Shown: positions 13,863-45,847 of the stretch, in pieces
How the letters are laid out: each line of letters starts with the position of its first letter
How positions within the stretch are numbered: position 1 is the first letter of the stretch
NCBI RefSeq assembly: GCF_009914755.1
Contig: NC_060940.1
From: the human T2T-CHM13v2.0 reference genome, Homo sapiens
Strand: one strand, 5' to 3'
Length of the DNA stretch: 64,000 bases
Notes under the pieces: generated by a model
The model's database searches: none
What the model was told of the DNA's origin: nothing
The model's input: the letters and a program-made list of their open reading frames with translations, nothing else
Translations under genes and position numbers: made by a program

Positions 13863-15081
13863 TATTTATAATATGAGCATGATTATATTGCCAAATATAA
13901 AATAAAATATCATAATGGCAACAATCAATTTTACCTGTCACCTTGACTAGACCGTAGTCTCATCTATTCAATCACACAGTAGCCTAGGTGTTGCTCCCAT
14001 GGCATAATACAGGTGTTAGTGGAGCCTGCCATTATTTTTTCCTAAGTCACGAAGAGTGTTCTAGATAATCTAGTTGGGACTGATTCAAAGACAGCATAAC
14101 AGAAGACGATGGGGCTCCGTGGTGGACGGCAGATGCAGATCTTCCCAGGAATTCCAGCCTGTCTTTCCCGAAGGCCAGTAGTATTGACCTTAAACTGCCT
14201 AGCCAGATTCTACAATTATTGTTACCCAGAGCTCACAGCACAATGGAGTGCCCATCCTCAGCTCTTCTCAAAGTCACAGGTGAGAGTCCAAACTCAGATA
14301 GTGTGAGAAGCACAAGATCAGCTCTACATCAATATCCCATTGGAGAAAACTAGTATTATTCTCTTCATGGCTAATGTCCACTACATTTTCCAAATGCCTC
14401 CATGCACAGAAGACAACAGGAGTGTCCAGACAATGGTGAGTGAGAAAGTCCCCTCAGCCTACCCAGGTCCTGCAGACCCAAGCCCTGGAATTTTGACTAC
14501 AGAAAACACATCTTCTGTTTTCAGGGAAGAGAAGAAGAAAGGGAACTGTGAGAATCAAGTCTACAGAGATGGAAAATGGATCAGCAGAAAGAGGGTCAGC
14601 TGAATCAGTCTGAGTCAGATGGGCACAGTTTTACAAGTTGAGAGGGGACAGCTGTGAAAACCATCAGGTTTTAAGGACCCTGACCCTGGGTGAGCCTCTC
14701 TCTTGGCTCCCATCAGAGCTCAAGGCCTGTTCTAATCAGAGATTCCCATGGAGGTCTCTGCTCTGAGTCTAATTGGAAAACACTCTCCAGGTTTCCCTGA
14801 GATTCCTCAGGACTCTCATCCTGACCATGAAAGGATTATTTCTGCCCCCAAAGTGACACCCTGGCTTCTGTGGAGGTGAGGGTGTTTCCTCTTGTTACAA
14901 AAACAAAGGAACAAAAAAAAACGTTTTACATTTAGAGACATCAAATGTTAATATAGAATTGTAAATCTGGAGAAGTTCCCTGGGGAAATTTGACGATGAG
15001 GCTGCCCCAGGCCATGACAGAAAGCCAGCCCTCAGCAGCACCTGCACCTGCCCTGGAGACAGCCCCGTGCACAGTGTCCTG

Positions 15082-15095
15082 GCGCCCCCTGGTGG
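15082..15095 (-). promoter_or_regulatory. RSS-proximal CTCF-binding element
   Basis: Minus strand reads CCACCAGGGGGCGC (CTCF core consensus), 21 bp 3' of the IGHV3 nonamer. Confidence 0.85.
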
Positions 15096-15116
15096 TCTCT
15101 GGGACCCTTTCAGGGA

Positions 15117-18832: not shown

Positions 18833-19142
18833 AACTTCCTCTTGAATTTCTCCCTGTTGCCACCCACACCAACCCCAGGCCTGGAGTCTGCTGGCCCAAG
18901 CTGATGCTGCAATCTGTGAAGGTGAATCCAGAGTCTTTGCAGGAGGGGCTCAGTGAACCGCTGGGCTGTACAATTTTTCCCCCTCAGACTCCACCAGTGA
19001 ACTTCACATAGGACTTCTGCAAACACAGAGAGAATGGACTGAGAACAGCCGCATGTGGAGCAGCCCCAGCTGGACCTGATTCACAAGGGCCACTAATACT
19101 GAGGGTGATGAGAAGGGAAGCCCAGATCAGTGCAGATCCCAC
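18833..19142 (-). pseudogene. IGHV(III)-type pseudogene, 3'-truncated (IGHV(III)-11-1-like)
   Basis: Leader with GTG start, acceptor ttgcag with exon starting at 19016, tgcaaagactctggattcaccttc (CKDSGFTF), no FR3 or RSS; paralogous to 41910-42335. Confidence 0.8.
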
Positions 19143-19662
19143 GGTGTGGACACTGAGGAAGGGCACACACATGGGATGGCTCCTCACCGGGGCCTGAAGG
19201 AACAGGGGATGAGCTGCCTTTCATGAGGAGGGGAGGGGACATATTTCCATGTCTTTCTTTTTGTGGTCCTGGGTGCACCGCCCGGCATTGCTCATCTGTC
19301 CTCTGTGTCTCCATTTCAGGGAGGGCAGGGTCAAAGGATTCCCGGGTCTGGAGGCACAGGGTTAATCTGCCAATTACTCTTTCTTATTCTCCAGTGTGGA
19401 CACTATTCAGGTATCTTCATAGTAGAAAACATTATCATCAAATACATCCAGTAAGAACATAAAAATACATTTCCAGAGAAAACAGACATCTCTCTGTAAT
19501 CAGTACACTTAGAGCTGGAAACCACTGTTCCTGACCATGTGGCAAAGTTGAGTTACAATGAAAATAATGCAGATCTACACCTTGTTAGGGAGGGGGTTTA
19601 TAATTATCATTATCTGGAGATCACTTTTCACAACATATTTCAACATCAGATATATGGACTTG

Positions 19663-19952
19663 TGTCAGGAAACAGTCAATGTGGACATATGTGTACTTAT
19701 CTGAGTGAAGAGTTCACATGGGGACGTGTTTGCTTGTCTGAGACAAGAGTAAACGTGAGGAAATGTCTGTTTTCTGAGGAAAGAGTAAATGTAAGGACAT
19801 ATGTGGTAGTCTGAGGAAAGAGTCCATGTGGGGACATGTGTGTTTGTCTGATGGAAGAATCCACATGAGTAAAGGTGTGTTTGTCTGACAGAAGAGCCCA
19901 CATGTTGACAGGTGTGTGTACCCATTTGAGGGTAAATGAGCATTCAGGGACA
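19663..19952. repeat. Degenerate ~37-bp tandem repeat (~8 units) upstream of IGHV(III) copy A
   Basis: Unit ~gaggaaagagtccatgtggggacatgtgtgtttgtct. Confidence 0.8.
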
Positions 19953-22160: not shown

Positions 22161-22445
22161 TCCTGTCCACTCAAGCCCTTGTCCAGGGGCCCATCGCACC
22201 CAGTGCAAGTAGCAGTAGGTGAAGGTGTATCCAGAAGCCTGGCAGGAGAACACTGAGGCCCCAGGCTTCTTCACCTCAGCCCCAGACTGCACCAGCTGCA
22301 CCAGGAAGTGGGCACCTGTGGGGAGGACACAGGATGGATGAAAGCCCCCTTGACTGGACTCAATCCCCTCCTCATTACTGGGACCTGGGAACCCCTTACC
22401 TGTGGCTGCTGCCACCAAGAAGAGGATCTTGCAGGTCCAGCCAAT
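22161..22445 (-). pseudogene. IGHV1 pseudogene, 3'-truncated after FR2 (IGHV1-12-like orphon)
   Basis: ATG>ATT at 22445, leader to 22400, V exon from 22315 [48 protein letters not shown], then stop; CDR2, FR3 and RSS absent. Confidence 0.9.
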
Positions 22446-29232: not shown

Positions 29233-29271
29233 GGTTTGTGTCTGGGCTCACACTGACTTCCCCTCACTGTG
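29233..29271 (-). promoter_or_regulatory. Canonical VH3-type 23-RSS
   Basis: CACAGTG (29265-29271), 23 bp, ACACAAACC (29233-29241). Confidence 0.95.
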
Positions 29272-29728
29272 TCTCTTGCACAGTAATACACAGCCATGTC
29301 CTCGGCTCTCAGGCTGTTCATTTGAAGATACAAGGAGTTCTTGGCATTGTCTCTGGAGATGGTGAATCGGCCCTTCACGGAGTCTGCATAGTATGTGCCA
29401 CCACCAGCACCAATAGCTGATACCCACTCCAGACCTTTTCCTGGAGCCTGGCGAACCCAGTGCATAGCATAGCTACTGAAGGTGAATCCAGAGCCTGCAC
29501 AGGAGAGTCTCAGGGACCCCCAGGCTGTACCAAGCCTCCCCCAGACTGCACCAGCTGAACCTCACACTGGACACCTGCAAACAGAGAGACACAAAGGTCA
29601 GAAATTGCCACACATCACATACCCACTGTTTCTCTCATTCATGCCCATTCACACTCAATATCTCTAGTTCTCCATGAATCACCCTTTAATATAGCAACAA
29701 GGAAAACCCAGCTCAGCACAAACTCCAT
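29272..29728 (-). pseudogene. IGHV3OR16-11: IGHV3-13-like orphon pseudogene with a 1-bp FR1 frameshift; leader 29728-29683, V exon 29574-29272
   Basis: MEFVLSWVFLVAILKG|[18 protein letters not shown], then G5 instead of G6 (C-run 29517-29521) gives an immediate TGA; the downstream frame is intact ([39 protein letters not shown]...YYCAR). Symbol from recollection. Confidence 0.82.
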
Positions 29729-40944: not shown

Positions 40945-41829
40945 AGTGGTGTCCTCAGTGCCCCTTGGTGTCCTCACTGCTCCCTGGTTTCCTGAGCACC
41001 CCCTGGTGTCCTGAGTGCCCCCCTGGGGTTCTGAGCACCCCTGGTGGTTCTGAGCACACCCTAGTGGTTCTGAACCACCTGGTGTCCCGATCGTCCCCGG
41101 TGGTTCTGAGTGCCTCCTCATGTCCTGAGTGCTCCCTAGTGGTTCTGAGTCCCCTGGTTTCCTGAGTACCCCCTGGTGGTTCTGAGCACCCCCTGGTGTC
41201 CTGAGCGCCCCCTGGTGTCCTCAAAACCCCCTAGTGGTTCTGAGCCCCCTGGGGTCCTAAGATCCCCCTAGTGGATCTGAGCATCCCCTGGGGTCCTGAG
41301 GGCCCCCTCGTGGTTCTGAGCACACCCTAGTGGTTCTGAGACCCCTGGTGTCCTGAGCACCTCCTGGTGGTTCTGAGATCCCCCTGGTGTCTTGATTGCC
41401 CTTTGGTGTTTCTGAGCTCCCCCTAGTGTCCTGAGGGCTCCCTGGTGTCTCCAGTGTCCCCTGGTGGTTCTGAGTGACCCCCACCAAGTGTCCTGAGTGC
41501 CCCCTGGTGGTTCTGAGCACCCCTGCTATCCTGAGCTACCCCTCACCACAGTGTCTGGAGTGCCCCCTGGTGGTTCTGAGTGACCCCCCCCCCCCCCAGT
41601 GTCCTGAGCGCTCCCTGGTGGTTCTGAGCACCCGCTGTTTTCCTGAGGCTCCGCACCCCCAGGTGGTTCTGAACATCCTTTCTTGTCATCAGTGCCCCAT
41701 GGTGGTTCTGAGCACCCTCTGGTGGTTTTGAGTGCCCCCTTGTGTTCTGAGCGCCCCCTGGTGGTTTTGAGTAACCCATGGTGTCCTGAGCACCCCCTGA
41801 TGTCCTGAGCACCCCCTGGTGGTTCTGAG
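40945..41829 (-). repeat. Minisatellite of ~45 x 19/20-bp units, each a CTCF-motif variant
   Basis: Units gcgccccctggtggttctga (20 bp) and gcgccccctggtgtcctga (19 bp); minus strand CCACCAGGGGGCGC exact at 41751-41764. Confidence 0.92.
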
Positions 41830-41870
41830 AAGCATCTACCAGGCAGTCCCCTCCTGTCCCCCTGCAGGGA

Positions 41871-41909
41871 GGTTGGTGTCTGAGCTCACTCAGATGTCCC
41901 CTCACTGTG
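41871..41909 (-). promoter_or_regulatory. 23-RSS of the IGHV(III) pseudogene
   Basis: CACAGTG (41903-41909), 23 bp, ACACCAACC (41871-41879). Confidence 0.88.
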
Positions 41910-42335
41910 TCCCTCAAAGTAATACACGGAGTTTTCCTGAGCTCTCAGGTTAATCATCTTAAAAGAGAATCTCCTGAACTGAGTGTATTTGAGGATTGTT
42001 AATCATCTTTTTACTCAAGGAGAGTCCCACTGAGAACTTCCATTTGAATTATTGTTATTACCCACACCCACCCCTGTCATGAAGCCTGCTGGATCAAGCT
42101 TATGCTGTTTTCAGTGAAAGTGAATCCAGAGGCTTTGCAGAAAAGGCAGAATTCCTGGTCTGTAGTATTTCTCTGTCTGACTCCGTTAGTTAACGTCACA
42201 GGGGACTTCTGCAAACACAGAGGCAACAGACTGAGAACAGCCCCACCTTTGAGCAGCCACAGCAGGGCCTGATCCACGGGGAACCTGGATATTGAGAGTG
42301 ATGACAAGAGAAGCCCAGATCAGCACAGACCCCAT
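41910..42335 (-). pseudogene. IGHV(III)-type pseudogene (IGHV(III)-13-1-like)
   Basis: Leader MGSVLIWASLVITLNIQ, acceptor ttgcag with exon starting at 42208, FCKASGFTFTENSISLIQQAS*, FR3 ctgagagctcaggaaaactccgtgtattac; multiple stops and indels. Confidence 0.88.
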
Positions 42336-42849: not shown

Positions 42850-43050
42850 CTATATGTGCTTGTCTGAGGAAAAAGTCAATGTGGGGACATGTGTGCTTAT
42901 CTGAGGGAAGAGTTCACATGAAGACAGGGGTGCTTGTCTGAGGGAAGAGTCAACCTGAGGATGCGTTTGTCTGAGGGAAAGGTCCACGTGGGGACAGGTG
43001 TGGGCATTGTCTGATGGTAAATGCCCATTCAGAGACGGTGTGTGCCTGGA
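42850..43050. repeat. Degenerate ~37-bp tandem repeat (~5 units) upstream of IGHV(III) copy B
   Basis: Same unit as 19663-19952. Confidence 0.75.
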
Positions 43051-45375: not shown

Positions 45376-45414
45376 GATTGCTGACTGTCTCAGGATGTGG
45401 GTTTTCACATTGTG
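45376..45414 (-). promoter_or_regulatory. Degenerate 23-RSS of the IGHV1 pseudogene
   Basis: CACAATG, 23 bp, TCAGCAATC. Confidence 0.8.
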
Positions 45415-45847
45415 TGTCTCGCACAGTAGTACACATCTATGTCCTCAGATCTCTGACTGCTCAGCTCCATGTAGGCTGTGCTCGTGGACATGTCCCTGGT
45501 CATGGTGACTCTGCCCTGAAACTTCTGTGCATAGCCTGTCTTACCATTGCCAGAGTAGATCCCTCCCATCCTTTCAAACCCTTATCCAGGGGCCTGTCGC
45601 ACACAGTGAATATCGTAGCTGGTGAAGGTGTATCCAGAGCTTTGCGGGACACCTTCACTGAGGCCCCAAGCTTCCTCCTTCAGCCCCAGACTGCACCAGC
45701 TGCACCTGGAATTGGGCACCTGTGGAGAGAATACAGGAGTGGATGAAATTCTTTTTGACTGAAAAGAGTCCTCTCATCCTTCGGAGTAGGTGGTCCTTTA
45801 CCTGTAGCTGCTGCCACCAAAAAAATGATCCTTCAGGTCCAGTCCAT
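45415..45847 (-). pseudogene. IGHV1 pseudogene (IGHV1-14-like orphon); leader 45847-45802, V exon 45719-45415
   Basis: TGA at leader codon 5, FR1 frameshifts, first Cys>Arg, FR2 Trp>Cys, TAA in FR2; FR3 [32 protein letters not shown] recognisable. Confidence 0.92.

What the first reader, a model, noticed from the sequence alone, without database searches (positions are those of the whole stretch)
40945..41909. Tandem array of ~45 CTCF-motif units behind the RSS of a dead IGHV(III) pseudogene
Seen: starting 41 bp 3' of the nonamer are ~45 units of 19/20 bp (counted by eye), often alternating ...ggtggttctga and ...ggtgtcctga. All point the same way as the gene. The unit is essentially the single RSS-proximal element at 15082-15095: CCACCAGGGGGCGC is exact at 41751-41764, with near-consensus copies at 41205, 41497, 41560, 41712 and 41809. 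Most units have the CpG decayed to TG or CA. Established: single CTCF sites next to VH RSSs (e.g. mouse proximal VH genes such as VH81X) stall cohesin loop extrusion/RAG scanning and boost rearrangement. Inference: the site has been amplified into a VNTR with about one motif per two helical turns. It could act as a copy-number-tunable, partly methylation-insensitive super-anchor, here exported to an orphon locus. Similar repeats probably exist 3' of some IGH V genes, so the repeat itself may be catalogued; the role is the hypothesis.
Basis: partly seen in the sequence, partly recalled or inferred. Interest (0 to 1): 0.8.

Follow-up and report, generated by a model that had tools for sequence, protein, structure and literature searches.

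The report
CTCF-motif minisatellite behind dead VH gene
A real run of about 45 short repeats, each resembling a CTCF binding site, sits just behind an inactive antibody V gene on chromosome 16; it is a decayed duplicate of a repeat family found behind the same kind of dead V gene across the true antibody heavy-chain locus, where the motif clusters are already in print.

Summary
Window 40947-41829 is a tandem array of about 45 units of 19/20 bp, all in the orientation of an unannotated clan-III-like VH pseudogene. The first unit starts 41 nt behind an intact 23-RSS.

With a CTCF matrix recalled from memory, 27 units pass p<1e-4, all on one strand. Shuffles of the array give 1.3.

The array is not special to this locus. 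In the same assembly, 24 of 24 paralogous pseudogene bodies that keep their 3' end carry the same array at the same offset (chr14 IGH, chr15, chr16, chr2). Lengths run from 116 to 2,084 bp.

These arrays are the "hot spots" of CTCF motifs reported by Ciccone et al. 2019. That paper's criterion gives 48 sites in 2,041 bp at the largest array, against its "50 sites within 2.1 kb".

The unit resembles the single RSS-proximal site of VH3 genes, so amplification of that site is supported.

I found no sign of selection on the motif. The chr16 copy is the shortest of four near-identical duplicates, and only 3 of 40 scored units keep the CpG.

CTCF binding and any anchor role remain untested. The best reading is an inherited, probably inert passenger copy.

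The parts
40947..41829 (-). Tandem array of about 45 units of 19/20 bp (39-bp pairs). Each unit carries a CTCF-like core, CCACCAGGGGG(C/T)(G/A)C or ACACCAGGGGG...
   Evidence: TRF; unit parse; PWM scan with 27 hits at p<1e-4, all on the minus strand; wraparound alignment
41830..41870 (-). 41-nt non-repeat spacer between the RSS nonamer and the first unit. It is conserved in the paralogues: the distance from nonamer to motif core is 45-48 nt at 13 of the 16 arrays measured, and exactly 47 at 10.
41871..41909 (-). 23-RSS of the pseudogene: heptamer CACAGTG (41903-41909), 23-nt spacer, nonamer ACACCAACC (41871-41879)
41910..42335 (-). Unannotated clan-III-like VH pseudogene, with a leader ATG at 42335, an intron, and a V exon with stops in every frame. 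The second Cys codon is replaced.
   Evidence: Translation and blastn against IGHV3OR16-17; closest to VH3 references; 30 paralogues in the assembly
15080..15098 (-). Single RSS-proximal CTCF motif behind IGHV3OR16-17. It is the best PWM hit of the window (22.7 bits) and the single-copy counterpart of the array unit.

Best explanation
The array is one copy of an old minisatellite family. I infer that it arose by tandem amplification of the RSS-proximal CTCF-binding element of a clan-III VH gene, before that now-dead gene lineage spread through the IGH locus. Every descendant that keeps its 3' end still carries the array, starting about 47 nt behind the nonamer.

The chr16 copy came along with a pericentromeric segmental duplication of IGH sequence. 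Since then it has lost and gained whole unit blocks and has decayed like its methylated flanks. At this orphon locus it most likely does nothing specific, since there is no recombination centre for it to serve.

In the true IGH locus, arrays of same-oriented CTCF motifs would be expected to load several CTCF molecules. By spacing, that is at most about one per 39-58 bp, so 9-15 for an array like this one. They would stall cohesin arriving from the D-J side, acting as strong loop anchors within the VH domain.

Shown here: the anatomy, the family distribution, the link to the published "hot spots", and the lack of a selection signature. Inferred: the order of events, CTCF occupancy and any barrier action.
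For: Family distribution. 30 matches to the V body were found in the assembly. 24 keep the 3' end and all 24 have the array next to it. 6 are truncated at the 3' end and have no array match beside them. At the 16 arrays measured, the distance from nonamer to core is 45-48 nt at 13 (exactly 47 at 10). Arrays span 116-2084 bp with 5-74 PWM hits, all in the gene's orientation.

Link to single VH3 sites. Unit and junction resemble the single CTCF site and its 3' context at VH3 genes. A VH1 and a VH2 gene have nothing similar there.

Length change among duplicates. In four chr16 duplicates the flanks are 99.5-99.9% identical, but nonamer-to-flank lengths are 924 (window), 1072, 1399 and 1400 bp. 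The differences are blocks of whole units.

Decay. CpG is kept at 3 of 40 scored units. Array CpG o/e is 0.11 against 0.09 for the flanks.

Literature.
- Ciccone 2019 (sections 5 and 7 and some passages read) reports human VH CTCF motifs 19 or 48 bp from the nonamer. It also reports "hot spots" of up to 50 sites in 2.1 kb.
- That paper's criterion gives 48 sites in 2041 bp at chr14:100.270-100.272 Mb. It gives 148 sites over the 15 chr14 arrays, against the paper's 183 VH sites.
- Double CTCF footprints are documented for motifs separated by 30-40 bp linkers.
Against: - No binding, methylation or contact data could be consulted, so "inert at chr16" and "anchor in IGH" are both inferences.
- 15 units of this copy still score p<1e-5 and 4 score p<1e-6. 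The motif has no CpG at the methylation-sensitive core position. Some CTCF binding at chr16 is therefore quite possible.
- The PWM is recalled, not tool-supplied.
- Two chr14 arrays have no adjacent V(III)-type body: one at 100.246 Mb, inverted, and one at 100.984 Mb.
- The neutral-decay tests are crude. They use consensus-based identities with subfamily structure, and concerted evolution in arrays could mask selection.
- Two chr14 arrays keep most CpGs (13 of 18 and 13 of 22 scored units; o/e 0.37-0.38 against flanks 0.08-0.15). That fits germline protection at those copies and hints at function in IGH.
Confidence: 0.75

Rival explanations
1. The chr16 array is itself an active, copy-number-tunable CTCF super-anchor that binds many CTCF molecules and shapes local chromatin at the orphon locus.
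For: - 27 same-strand PWM hits at p<1e-4 and 15 at p<1e-5.
- The motif's only CpG is at core position 12, where methylation hardly matters.
- Clustered CTCF motifs show higher occupancy than single ones.
- Length differs among the four chr16 copies.
Against: - No recombination centre on chr16.
- This is the shortest of the four copies.
- CpG depletion equals that of the flanks, with 3 of 40 units keeping CG.
- There are 13 C-to-T changes at a position the matrix disfavours.
- Conservation is not CTCF-shaped.
- Adjacent units at 19-20 bp cannot all be occupied. At most 9-15 sites fit at 39-58 bp spacing.
Confidence: 0.12
2. In the IGH locus the arrays are kept by selection as multi-CTCF barriers that partition the VH domain, and the pseudogenes persist only as their carriers. 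The chr16 copy is a relic of a functional element.
For: - 24 of 24 paralogues with a 3' end retain an array, although their V bodies differ by up to about 30%.
- Strict common orientation.
- Two chr14 arrays keep most CpGs against depleted flanks.
- guQTL SNVs are enriched in CTCF-bound ENCODE elements in IGH (Rodriguez 2023, passages).
Against: - Unit identity to consensus (0.83-0.92) is no higher than that of the dead V bodies (0.91-0.95 in the main subfamily).
- The CTCAG linker is kept as well as the core.
- In Rodriguez 2023, tandem repeats were not lead variants for V usage. However, that study's 0.9 motif-match filter probably excluded these arrays, which have 64-80% matches.
Confidence: 0.2
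3. The repeat is a generic G+C-rich minisatellite whose likeness to CTCF motifs is incidental. Its real property would be recombination or structure-forming, such as G-quadruplex, PRDM9 hotspot or chi-like.
For: - The plus strand carries CCTGGTGG 9 times, which resembles a chi-like core known to me from recall.
- Block indels among duplicates show instability.
Against: - 0 canonical G4 patterns and 0 PRDM9 13-mer matches in the array.
- The unit and its junction match the single CTCF site behind VH3 RSSs.
- The array is confined to IGH and its duplicates in the two searches made.
Confidence: 0.04

Closest known systems
Human VH-domain CTCF motif "hot spots" (Ciccone et al. 2019, J Biol Chem, PMC6746451)
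   Same: Same motif (hVH-CTCF ACCACCAGGGGGCG), same orientation bias, the same 48-bp offset from the nonamer, and the same largest cluster. I find 48 sites in 2041 bp against the paper's 50 in 2.1 kb.
   Different: - The paper treats them as non-RSS-associated motif clusters.
- The words "tandem" and "pseudogene" do not occur in its main text.
- The passages I saw show no human ChIP data.
- Its supplementary tables are PDFs that I could not read.
- The window's copy lies on chr16, outside the locus the paper searched.
Single RSS-proximal VH CTCF-binding elements (mouse proximal VH genes; human VH3 genes)
   Same: Same position class behind a 23-RSS, same orientation, and closely similar sequence, including the 3' context. 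The window's own example is 15080-15098.
   Different: - One site against about 45 units.
- First site about 47 nt rather than about 20 nt from the nonamer.
- The gene served is dead.
- The functional evidence (stalling of RAG scanning) comes from mouse work that I know from recall and from reference lists only.
CTCF-bound macrosatellites DXZ4, ICCE and FIRRE, and the 1q23.3 tRNA VNTR
   Same: Tandem repeats whose units carry CTCF motifs and which are proposed as loop anchors or boundaries (search listing and abstracts only).
   Different: - Their units are kilobases long (3 kb; 7.3 kb), against 19-20 bp here.
- CTCF binding is shown for them by experiment and is not shown here.
Clustered CTCF target sites (2xCTSes; Pugacheva et al. 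2015, PMC4562119)
   Same: Closely spaced same-strand CTCF motifs under one peak, with double occupancy and a preference for BORIS/CTCFL (passages).
   Different: - 2xCTSes have two motifs with 30-40 bp linkers, mostly at promoters and enhancers.
- Here there are dozens of motifs with linkers of 0 or 19 bp, so neighbours must compete.
Synthetic 3'CBE module of 20 tandem CBE motifs in SynIgh (Cell Genomics 2026, PMC13261652)
   Same: An engineered tandem array of CTCF motifs used as a loop-extrusion anchor in an IGH context (passage).
   Different: [quoted passage not shown]

Membership tests
Human VH CTCF motif hot spots (Ciccone 2019) | Multiple matches to ACCACCAGGGGGCG with up to 2 mismatches within a short stretch | tested here: met
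   13 sites in 657 bp in the window's array; 48 in 2041 bp at the largest chr14 array
Human VH CTCF motif hot spots (Ciccone 2019) | Common orientation with the VH genes | tested here: met
   27 of 27 PWM hits on the gene's strand. In the 26 fetched loci that hold an array, every cluster is on one strand.
Human VH CTCF motif hot spots (Ciccone 2019) | Location inside the VH domain of the IGH locus at 14q32 | tested here: not met
   The window is chr16:35.40-35.47 Mb. It is a duplicated paralogue; the closest chr14 copy has a V body 91.7% identical.
CTCF-binding element / loop anchor | CTCF and cohesin occupancy in cells | not testable with these tools
   No ChIP, footprint or contact data are available. 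The paper searches found no human data for these arrays.
CTCF-binding element / loop anchor | Sequence constraint that follows the CTCF recognition profile | tested here: not met
   Spearman correlation of unit conservation with PWM information is -0.19 and -0.14 for the chr14 arrays and -0.35 and +0.29 for the window, none significant. Units are no better kept than the dead V bodies.
Minisatellite / VNTR | Head-to-tail units of 10-100 bp | tested here: met
   TRF periods 19, 39 and 95 across 40947-41829
Minisatellite / VNTR | Copy number varies between individuals | tested here: inconclusive
   Only one assembly is held. Among four chr16 duplicates the length is 924-1400 bp. Rodriguez 2023 reports a 3-allele imperfect tandem repeat between IGHV1-2 and IGHV1-3. 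The 2.1-kb array is the only large imperfect repeat I find in that interval; I assigned the gene names from recall.
IGHV clan III pseudogene with 23-RSS | Leader, intron and V exon followed by heptamer, 23-nt spacer and nonamer | tested here: met
IGHV clan III pseudogene with 23-RSS | Closest to the VH3 family among VH families | tested here: met
   Summed blastn bits are 116-152 against three VH3 references, 42-68 against VH1, 59 against VH4 (one HSP at the 3' end, FR3 tail plus RSS), and no hit against VH2. Similarity is patchy, at 72-95% over short stretches.
Macrosatellite CTCF anchors (DXZ4 type) | Kilobase-sized unit with one CTCF site per unit | tested here: not met
   The unit is 19-20 bp

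The most novel reading that the evidence does not exclude
About four fifths of the predicted CTCF sites of the human VH domain sit in minisatellites amplified from one RSS-proximal site. These minisatellites lie behind a family of dead clan-III V genes.

The arrays would be length-polymorphic multi-CTCF barriers that set how far cohesin and RAG scanning travel, and so tune human VH usage. They would be the human counterpart of the dispersed single sites of the mouse locus.

Their duplicated copies on chr16, chr15 and chr2 would plant ectopic CTCF clusters in pericentromeric duplications.
Probability: 0.15. Interest if true: 0.7.

Novelty: new member of a known kind. Interest (0 to 1): 0.33.

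Why it matters
For this window it matters little. The array is a decaying duplicate with no recombination centre to serve.

For the family it matters more. In the human IGH locus, 148 motif sites by the published criterion lie in 15 arrays, against 183 VH sites reported in print. Any model of loop extrusion in human V(D)J recombination therefore has to deal with arrays rather than single sites.

The arrays are hard to map with short reads. They were probably filtered out of the one large usage-QTL study. Their length polymorphism and their effect on antibody gene usage are therefore open, and can now be tested with long reads.

Tried and rejected
1. ENCODE element. I tried to tie an ENCODE CTCF-bound element to an array. 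The element is EH38E1747546, between IGHV3-66 and IGHV1-69, and carries 4 usage-QTL SNVs.
- In CHM13 the two arrays are the only p<1e-4 motif hits between 101,007,544 and 101,029,387 in that interval.
- hg38 gene coordinates that I hold only from recall place the element 1-3 kb distal of the nearer array.
- The interval differs by about 2.2 kb between assemblies. The result is inconclusive and I do not use it.

2. G-quadruplex: 0 canonical patterns, and 6 only when loops of up to 16 nt are allowed. Rejected.

3. PRDM9 13-mer: 0 in the array. Rejected.

4. Exact-pattern genome scan for two 20-nt-type cores 39 bp apart. It gave only 4 hits, all in known arrays, and 0 in the reversed control. This agrees with confinement to IGH and its duplicates, but the counts are lower bounds.

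5. Selection tests gave no positive signal. They are too crude to exclude selection.

6. Matsuda 1998 (12 of 18 passages seen). The passages mention simple repeats in a figure legend but do not describe this array.

7. Paper searches for the array as a tandem repeat or in connection with IGHV(III) found nothing beyond Ciccone 2019. About 1.7 million PMC articles are not searchable, and the Ciccone supplementary tables (PDF) could not be read.

9. A resemblance of the unit's 5' half to the left half-site of the REST motif crossed my mind from recall. I did not test it, and the spacing to any right half-site looked wrong.

Full report
**The observation**

The stretch 40947-41829 is a genuine tandem array. 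Tandem Repeats Finder reports periods of 19, 39 and 95 bp.

Parsing the minus strand on the CTCAG anchor gives 38 rows, 7 of which hold two units, so about 45 units. Most alternate between a 20-nt type (CTCAGAACCACCAGGGGGTG) and a 19-nt type (CTCAGGACACCAGGGGGTG). A wraparound alignment to the 39-nt pair gives 23 pairs.

The array starts 41 nt behind a canonical 23-RSS: heptamer 41903-41909, 23-nt spacer, nonamer 41871-41879.

The gene in front, about 41910-42335 on the minus strand, has a leader ATG, an intron acceptor, and FR1/CDR1-like and FR3-like stretches, with stops in every frame. It scores best against VH3 references. It is not in the RefSeq table supplied with the finding.

**Is it more than chance?**

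I used a CTCF count matrix recalled from memory (JASPAR MA0139.1; no tool supplied it).
- The array has 27 hits at p<1e-4, 15 at p<1e-5 and 4 at p<1e-6. All are on the gene's strand.
- 500 dinucleotide-preserving shuffles of the array give a mean of 1.27 hits on that strand, maximum 5.
- The remaining ~63 kb of the window has 14 hits on both strands, about the 12.6 expected.
- The published human VH consensus ACCACCAGGGGGCG with up to two mismatches gives 13 sites.

**What it is**

The window's assembly can be searched. The array plus its RSS-proximal spacer finds 104 matching pieces. They lie on chr14 between 100.246 and 101.155 Mb (the IGH V region), on chr16, on chr15 at 19.08 Mb, and at one place on chr2 (95.47 Mb).

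The pseudogene body alone finds 30 places.
- 24 keep the 3' end, and all 24 have an array directly behind them.
- 6 are truncated at the 3' end and have no array match beside them. One of these is in this window, at 18833-19157.

In the fetched loci the arrays all lie in the gene's orientation. At the 16 arrays measured, the distance from nonamer to motif core is 45-48 nt at 13 of them (exactly 47 at 10). The arrays span 116 to 2,084 bp and hold 5 to 74 PWM hits.

V bodies range from 99.4% identity (chr16 duplicates) through 91.7% (closest chr14 copy, at 100.413 Mb) down to about 70%. The array therefore predates the spread of this pseudogene lineage. That ordering is my inference.

Two chr14 arrays have no such body beside them: one at 100.246 Mb, inverted, and one at 100.984 Mb.

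**Origin of the unit**

Behind VH3 genes there is a single CTCF motif. Its 3' context continues like the next unit of the array...CAGGGGGCGCTCAGGAGCCAC..., or ...ACCACCAGGGGGCGCCAGGACAC... behind IGHV3OR16-17 in this window. A VH1 and a VH2 gene show nothing similar there.

**Already in print**

Ciccone et al. 2019 (PMC6746451; sections 5 and 7 and further passages read) searched the human IGH locus with this 14-mer.
- They found 188 sites, 183 of them in the VH region and 174 of those 183 in one orientation.
- RSS-associated sites lay 19 or 48 bp from the nonamer.
- Non-RSS sites formed "hot spots", from three sites in 100 bp to 50 sites within 2.1 kb.

Applying their criterion, the array at chr14:100.270-100.272 Mb has 48 sites in 2,041 bp. 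The 15 chr14 arrays together have 148 sites. These arrays are therefore their hot spots, and they account for most of the reported human VH sites.

The words "tandem" and "pseudogene" do not occur in that paper's main text. I saw no human binding data in it. Its supplementary tables are PDFs that I could not open. Four further searches found no paper that describes the arrays as a minisatellite behind IGHV(III) pseudogenes.

**VNTR behaviour**

Four chr16 duplicates have flanks that are 99.5-99.9% identical. Their nonamer-to-flank lengths are 924 (this window), 1,072, 1,399 and 1,400 bp. They differ by blocks of whole units, including one 39-bp pair. The window's copy is the shortest.

Rodriguez et al. 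2023 (passages) report a complex variant between IGHV1-2 and IGHV1-3. It has three alleles of a tandem repeat with poorly matching copies. In CHM13 the 2.1-kb array is the only large imperfect repeat between the two genes that I read as IGHV1-2 and IGHV1-3. I assigned those gene names from recall of their CDR2.

That study found no tandem repeat as a lead variant for V usage. However, it dropped repeats whose copies match the motif below 0.9, which probably removed these arrays.

**Is the motif under selection?**

I found no sign of it.
- Unit conservation does not correlate with the information content of the matrix. Spearman is -0.19 and -0.14 for the chr14 arrays, and -0.35 and +0.29 for the window, none significant.
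- The CTCAG linker is kept in 0.90-0.96 of units, as well as or better than the core.
- Unit identity to consensus is 0.83-0.92. That is not higher than the identity of the dead V bodies to their family consensus, which is 0.91-0.95 in the main subfamily.
- The variable positions are the CpG. In the window, 3 of 40 scored units keep CG, 13 have TG and 8 have CA. Array CpG o/e is 0.11, like the flanks at 0.09.
- Two chr14 arrays, at 100.580 and 100.984 Mb, keep 13 of 18 and 13 of 22, with o/e 0.37-0.38 against depleted flanks. This hints at germline protection there.

These tests are crude and cannot exclude selection.

**How it would work**

The motif's only CpG is at core position 12. According to a review passage, methylation there barely changes binding, whereas position 2 is the sensitive one. 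In these units position 2 is followed by A. A change from C to T at position 12 lowers the matrix score. A change from G to A at position 13 is tolerated.

Double CTCF footprints are documented for motifs with 30-40 bp linkers. Units here follow each other at 19-20 bp, so neighbours must compete. With a minimum spacing of 39-58 bp, at most 11-15 of the p<1e-4 sites could be occupied at once, or 9-11 of the p<1e-5 sites.

In IGH, motifs pointing towards the D-J side would be expected to stall cohesin coming from the recombination centre. I take this from established mouse work that I know from recall. On chr16 there is no such centre.

**Verdict**

The motif clusters are already published for IGH. 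The super-anchor role is untested, and at this decayed orphon copy it is unlikely to matter.

The chr14 family, not this window, deserves a follow-up with long-read footprinting.

Noticed in passing
window 42855-43002 and 19722-19917; also chr14:100,273,627-100,273,823: A 37-bp tandem repeat (4-5 copies, 71-77% matches) lies about 500 bp upstream of the leader of the V(III)-type pseudogene. It recurs upstream of the 3'-truncated copy in the window and of the chr14 paralogue. It looks like a second conserved repeat of this gene family.
   Followed up: partly
window 18833-19157 (-): A second V(III)-type pseudogene fragment, matching only the 5' 316 nt of the body at 74.5% identity. It has no RSS and no array. 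Four chr16 copies and two chr14 copies share this 3' truncation.
   Followed up: partly
window 45411-45722 (-) and 22166-22318 (-): Further weak VH3-like fragments (67-71% identity to IGHV3OR16-17) that are not in the RefSeq table supplied.
   Followed up: no
L023 = chr2:95,469,000-95,473,000: A 5'-truncated V(III)-type fragment with a perfect heptamer and nonamer and a short array (176 bp, 5 PWM hits). It sits near the chr2 centromere, outside the heavy-chain orphon sites on chr15 and chr16 that I know of from recall.
   Followed up: partly
window 29233-29274 region (-), behind IGHV3OR16-11: The RSS-proximal CTCF motif of this pseudogene has decayed (CAGCTGCGGGGGGCGC context) and no longer passes p<1e-4. 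The one behind IGHV3OR16-17 is the best site of the window.
   Followed up: no
L014 (chr14:100.580 Mb) and L018 (chr14:100.984 Mb): These two IGH arrays keep the motif CpG in most units (13 of 18 and 13 of 22) against CpG-poor flanks, unlike all the other arrays. They may be unmethylated in the germline.
   Followed up: partly
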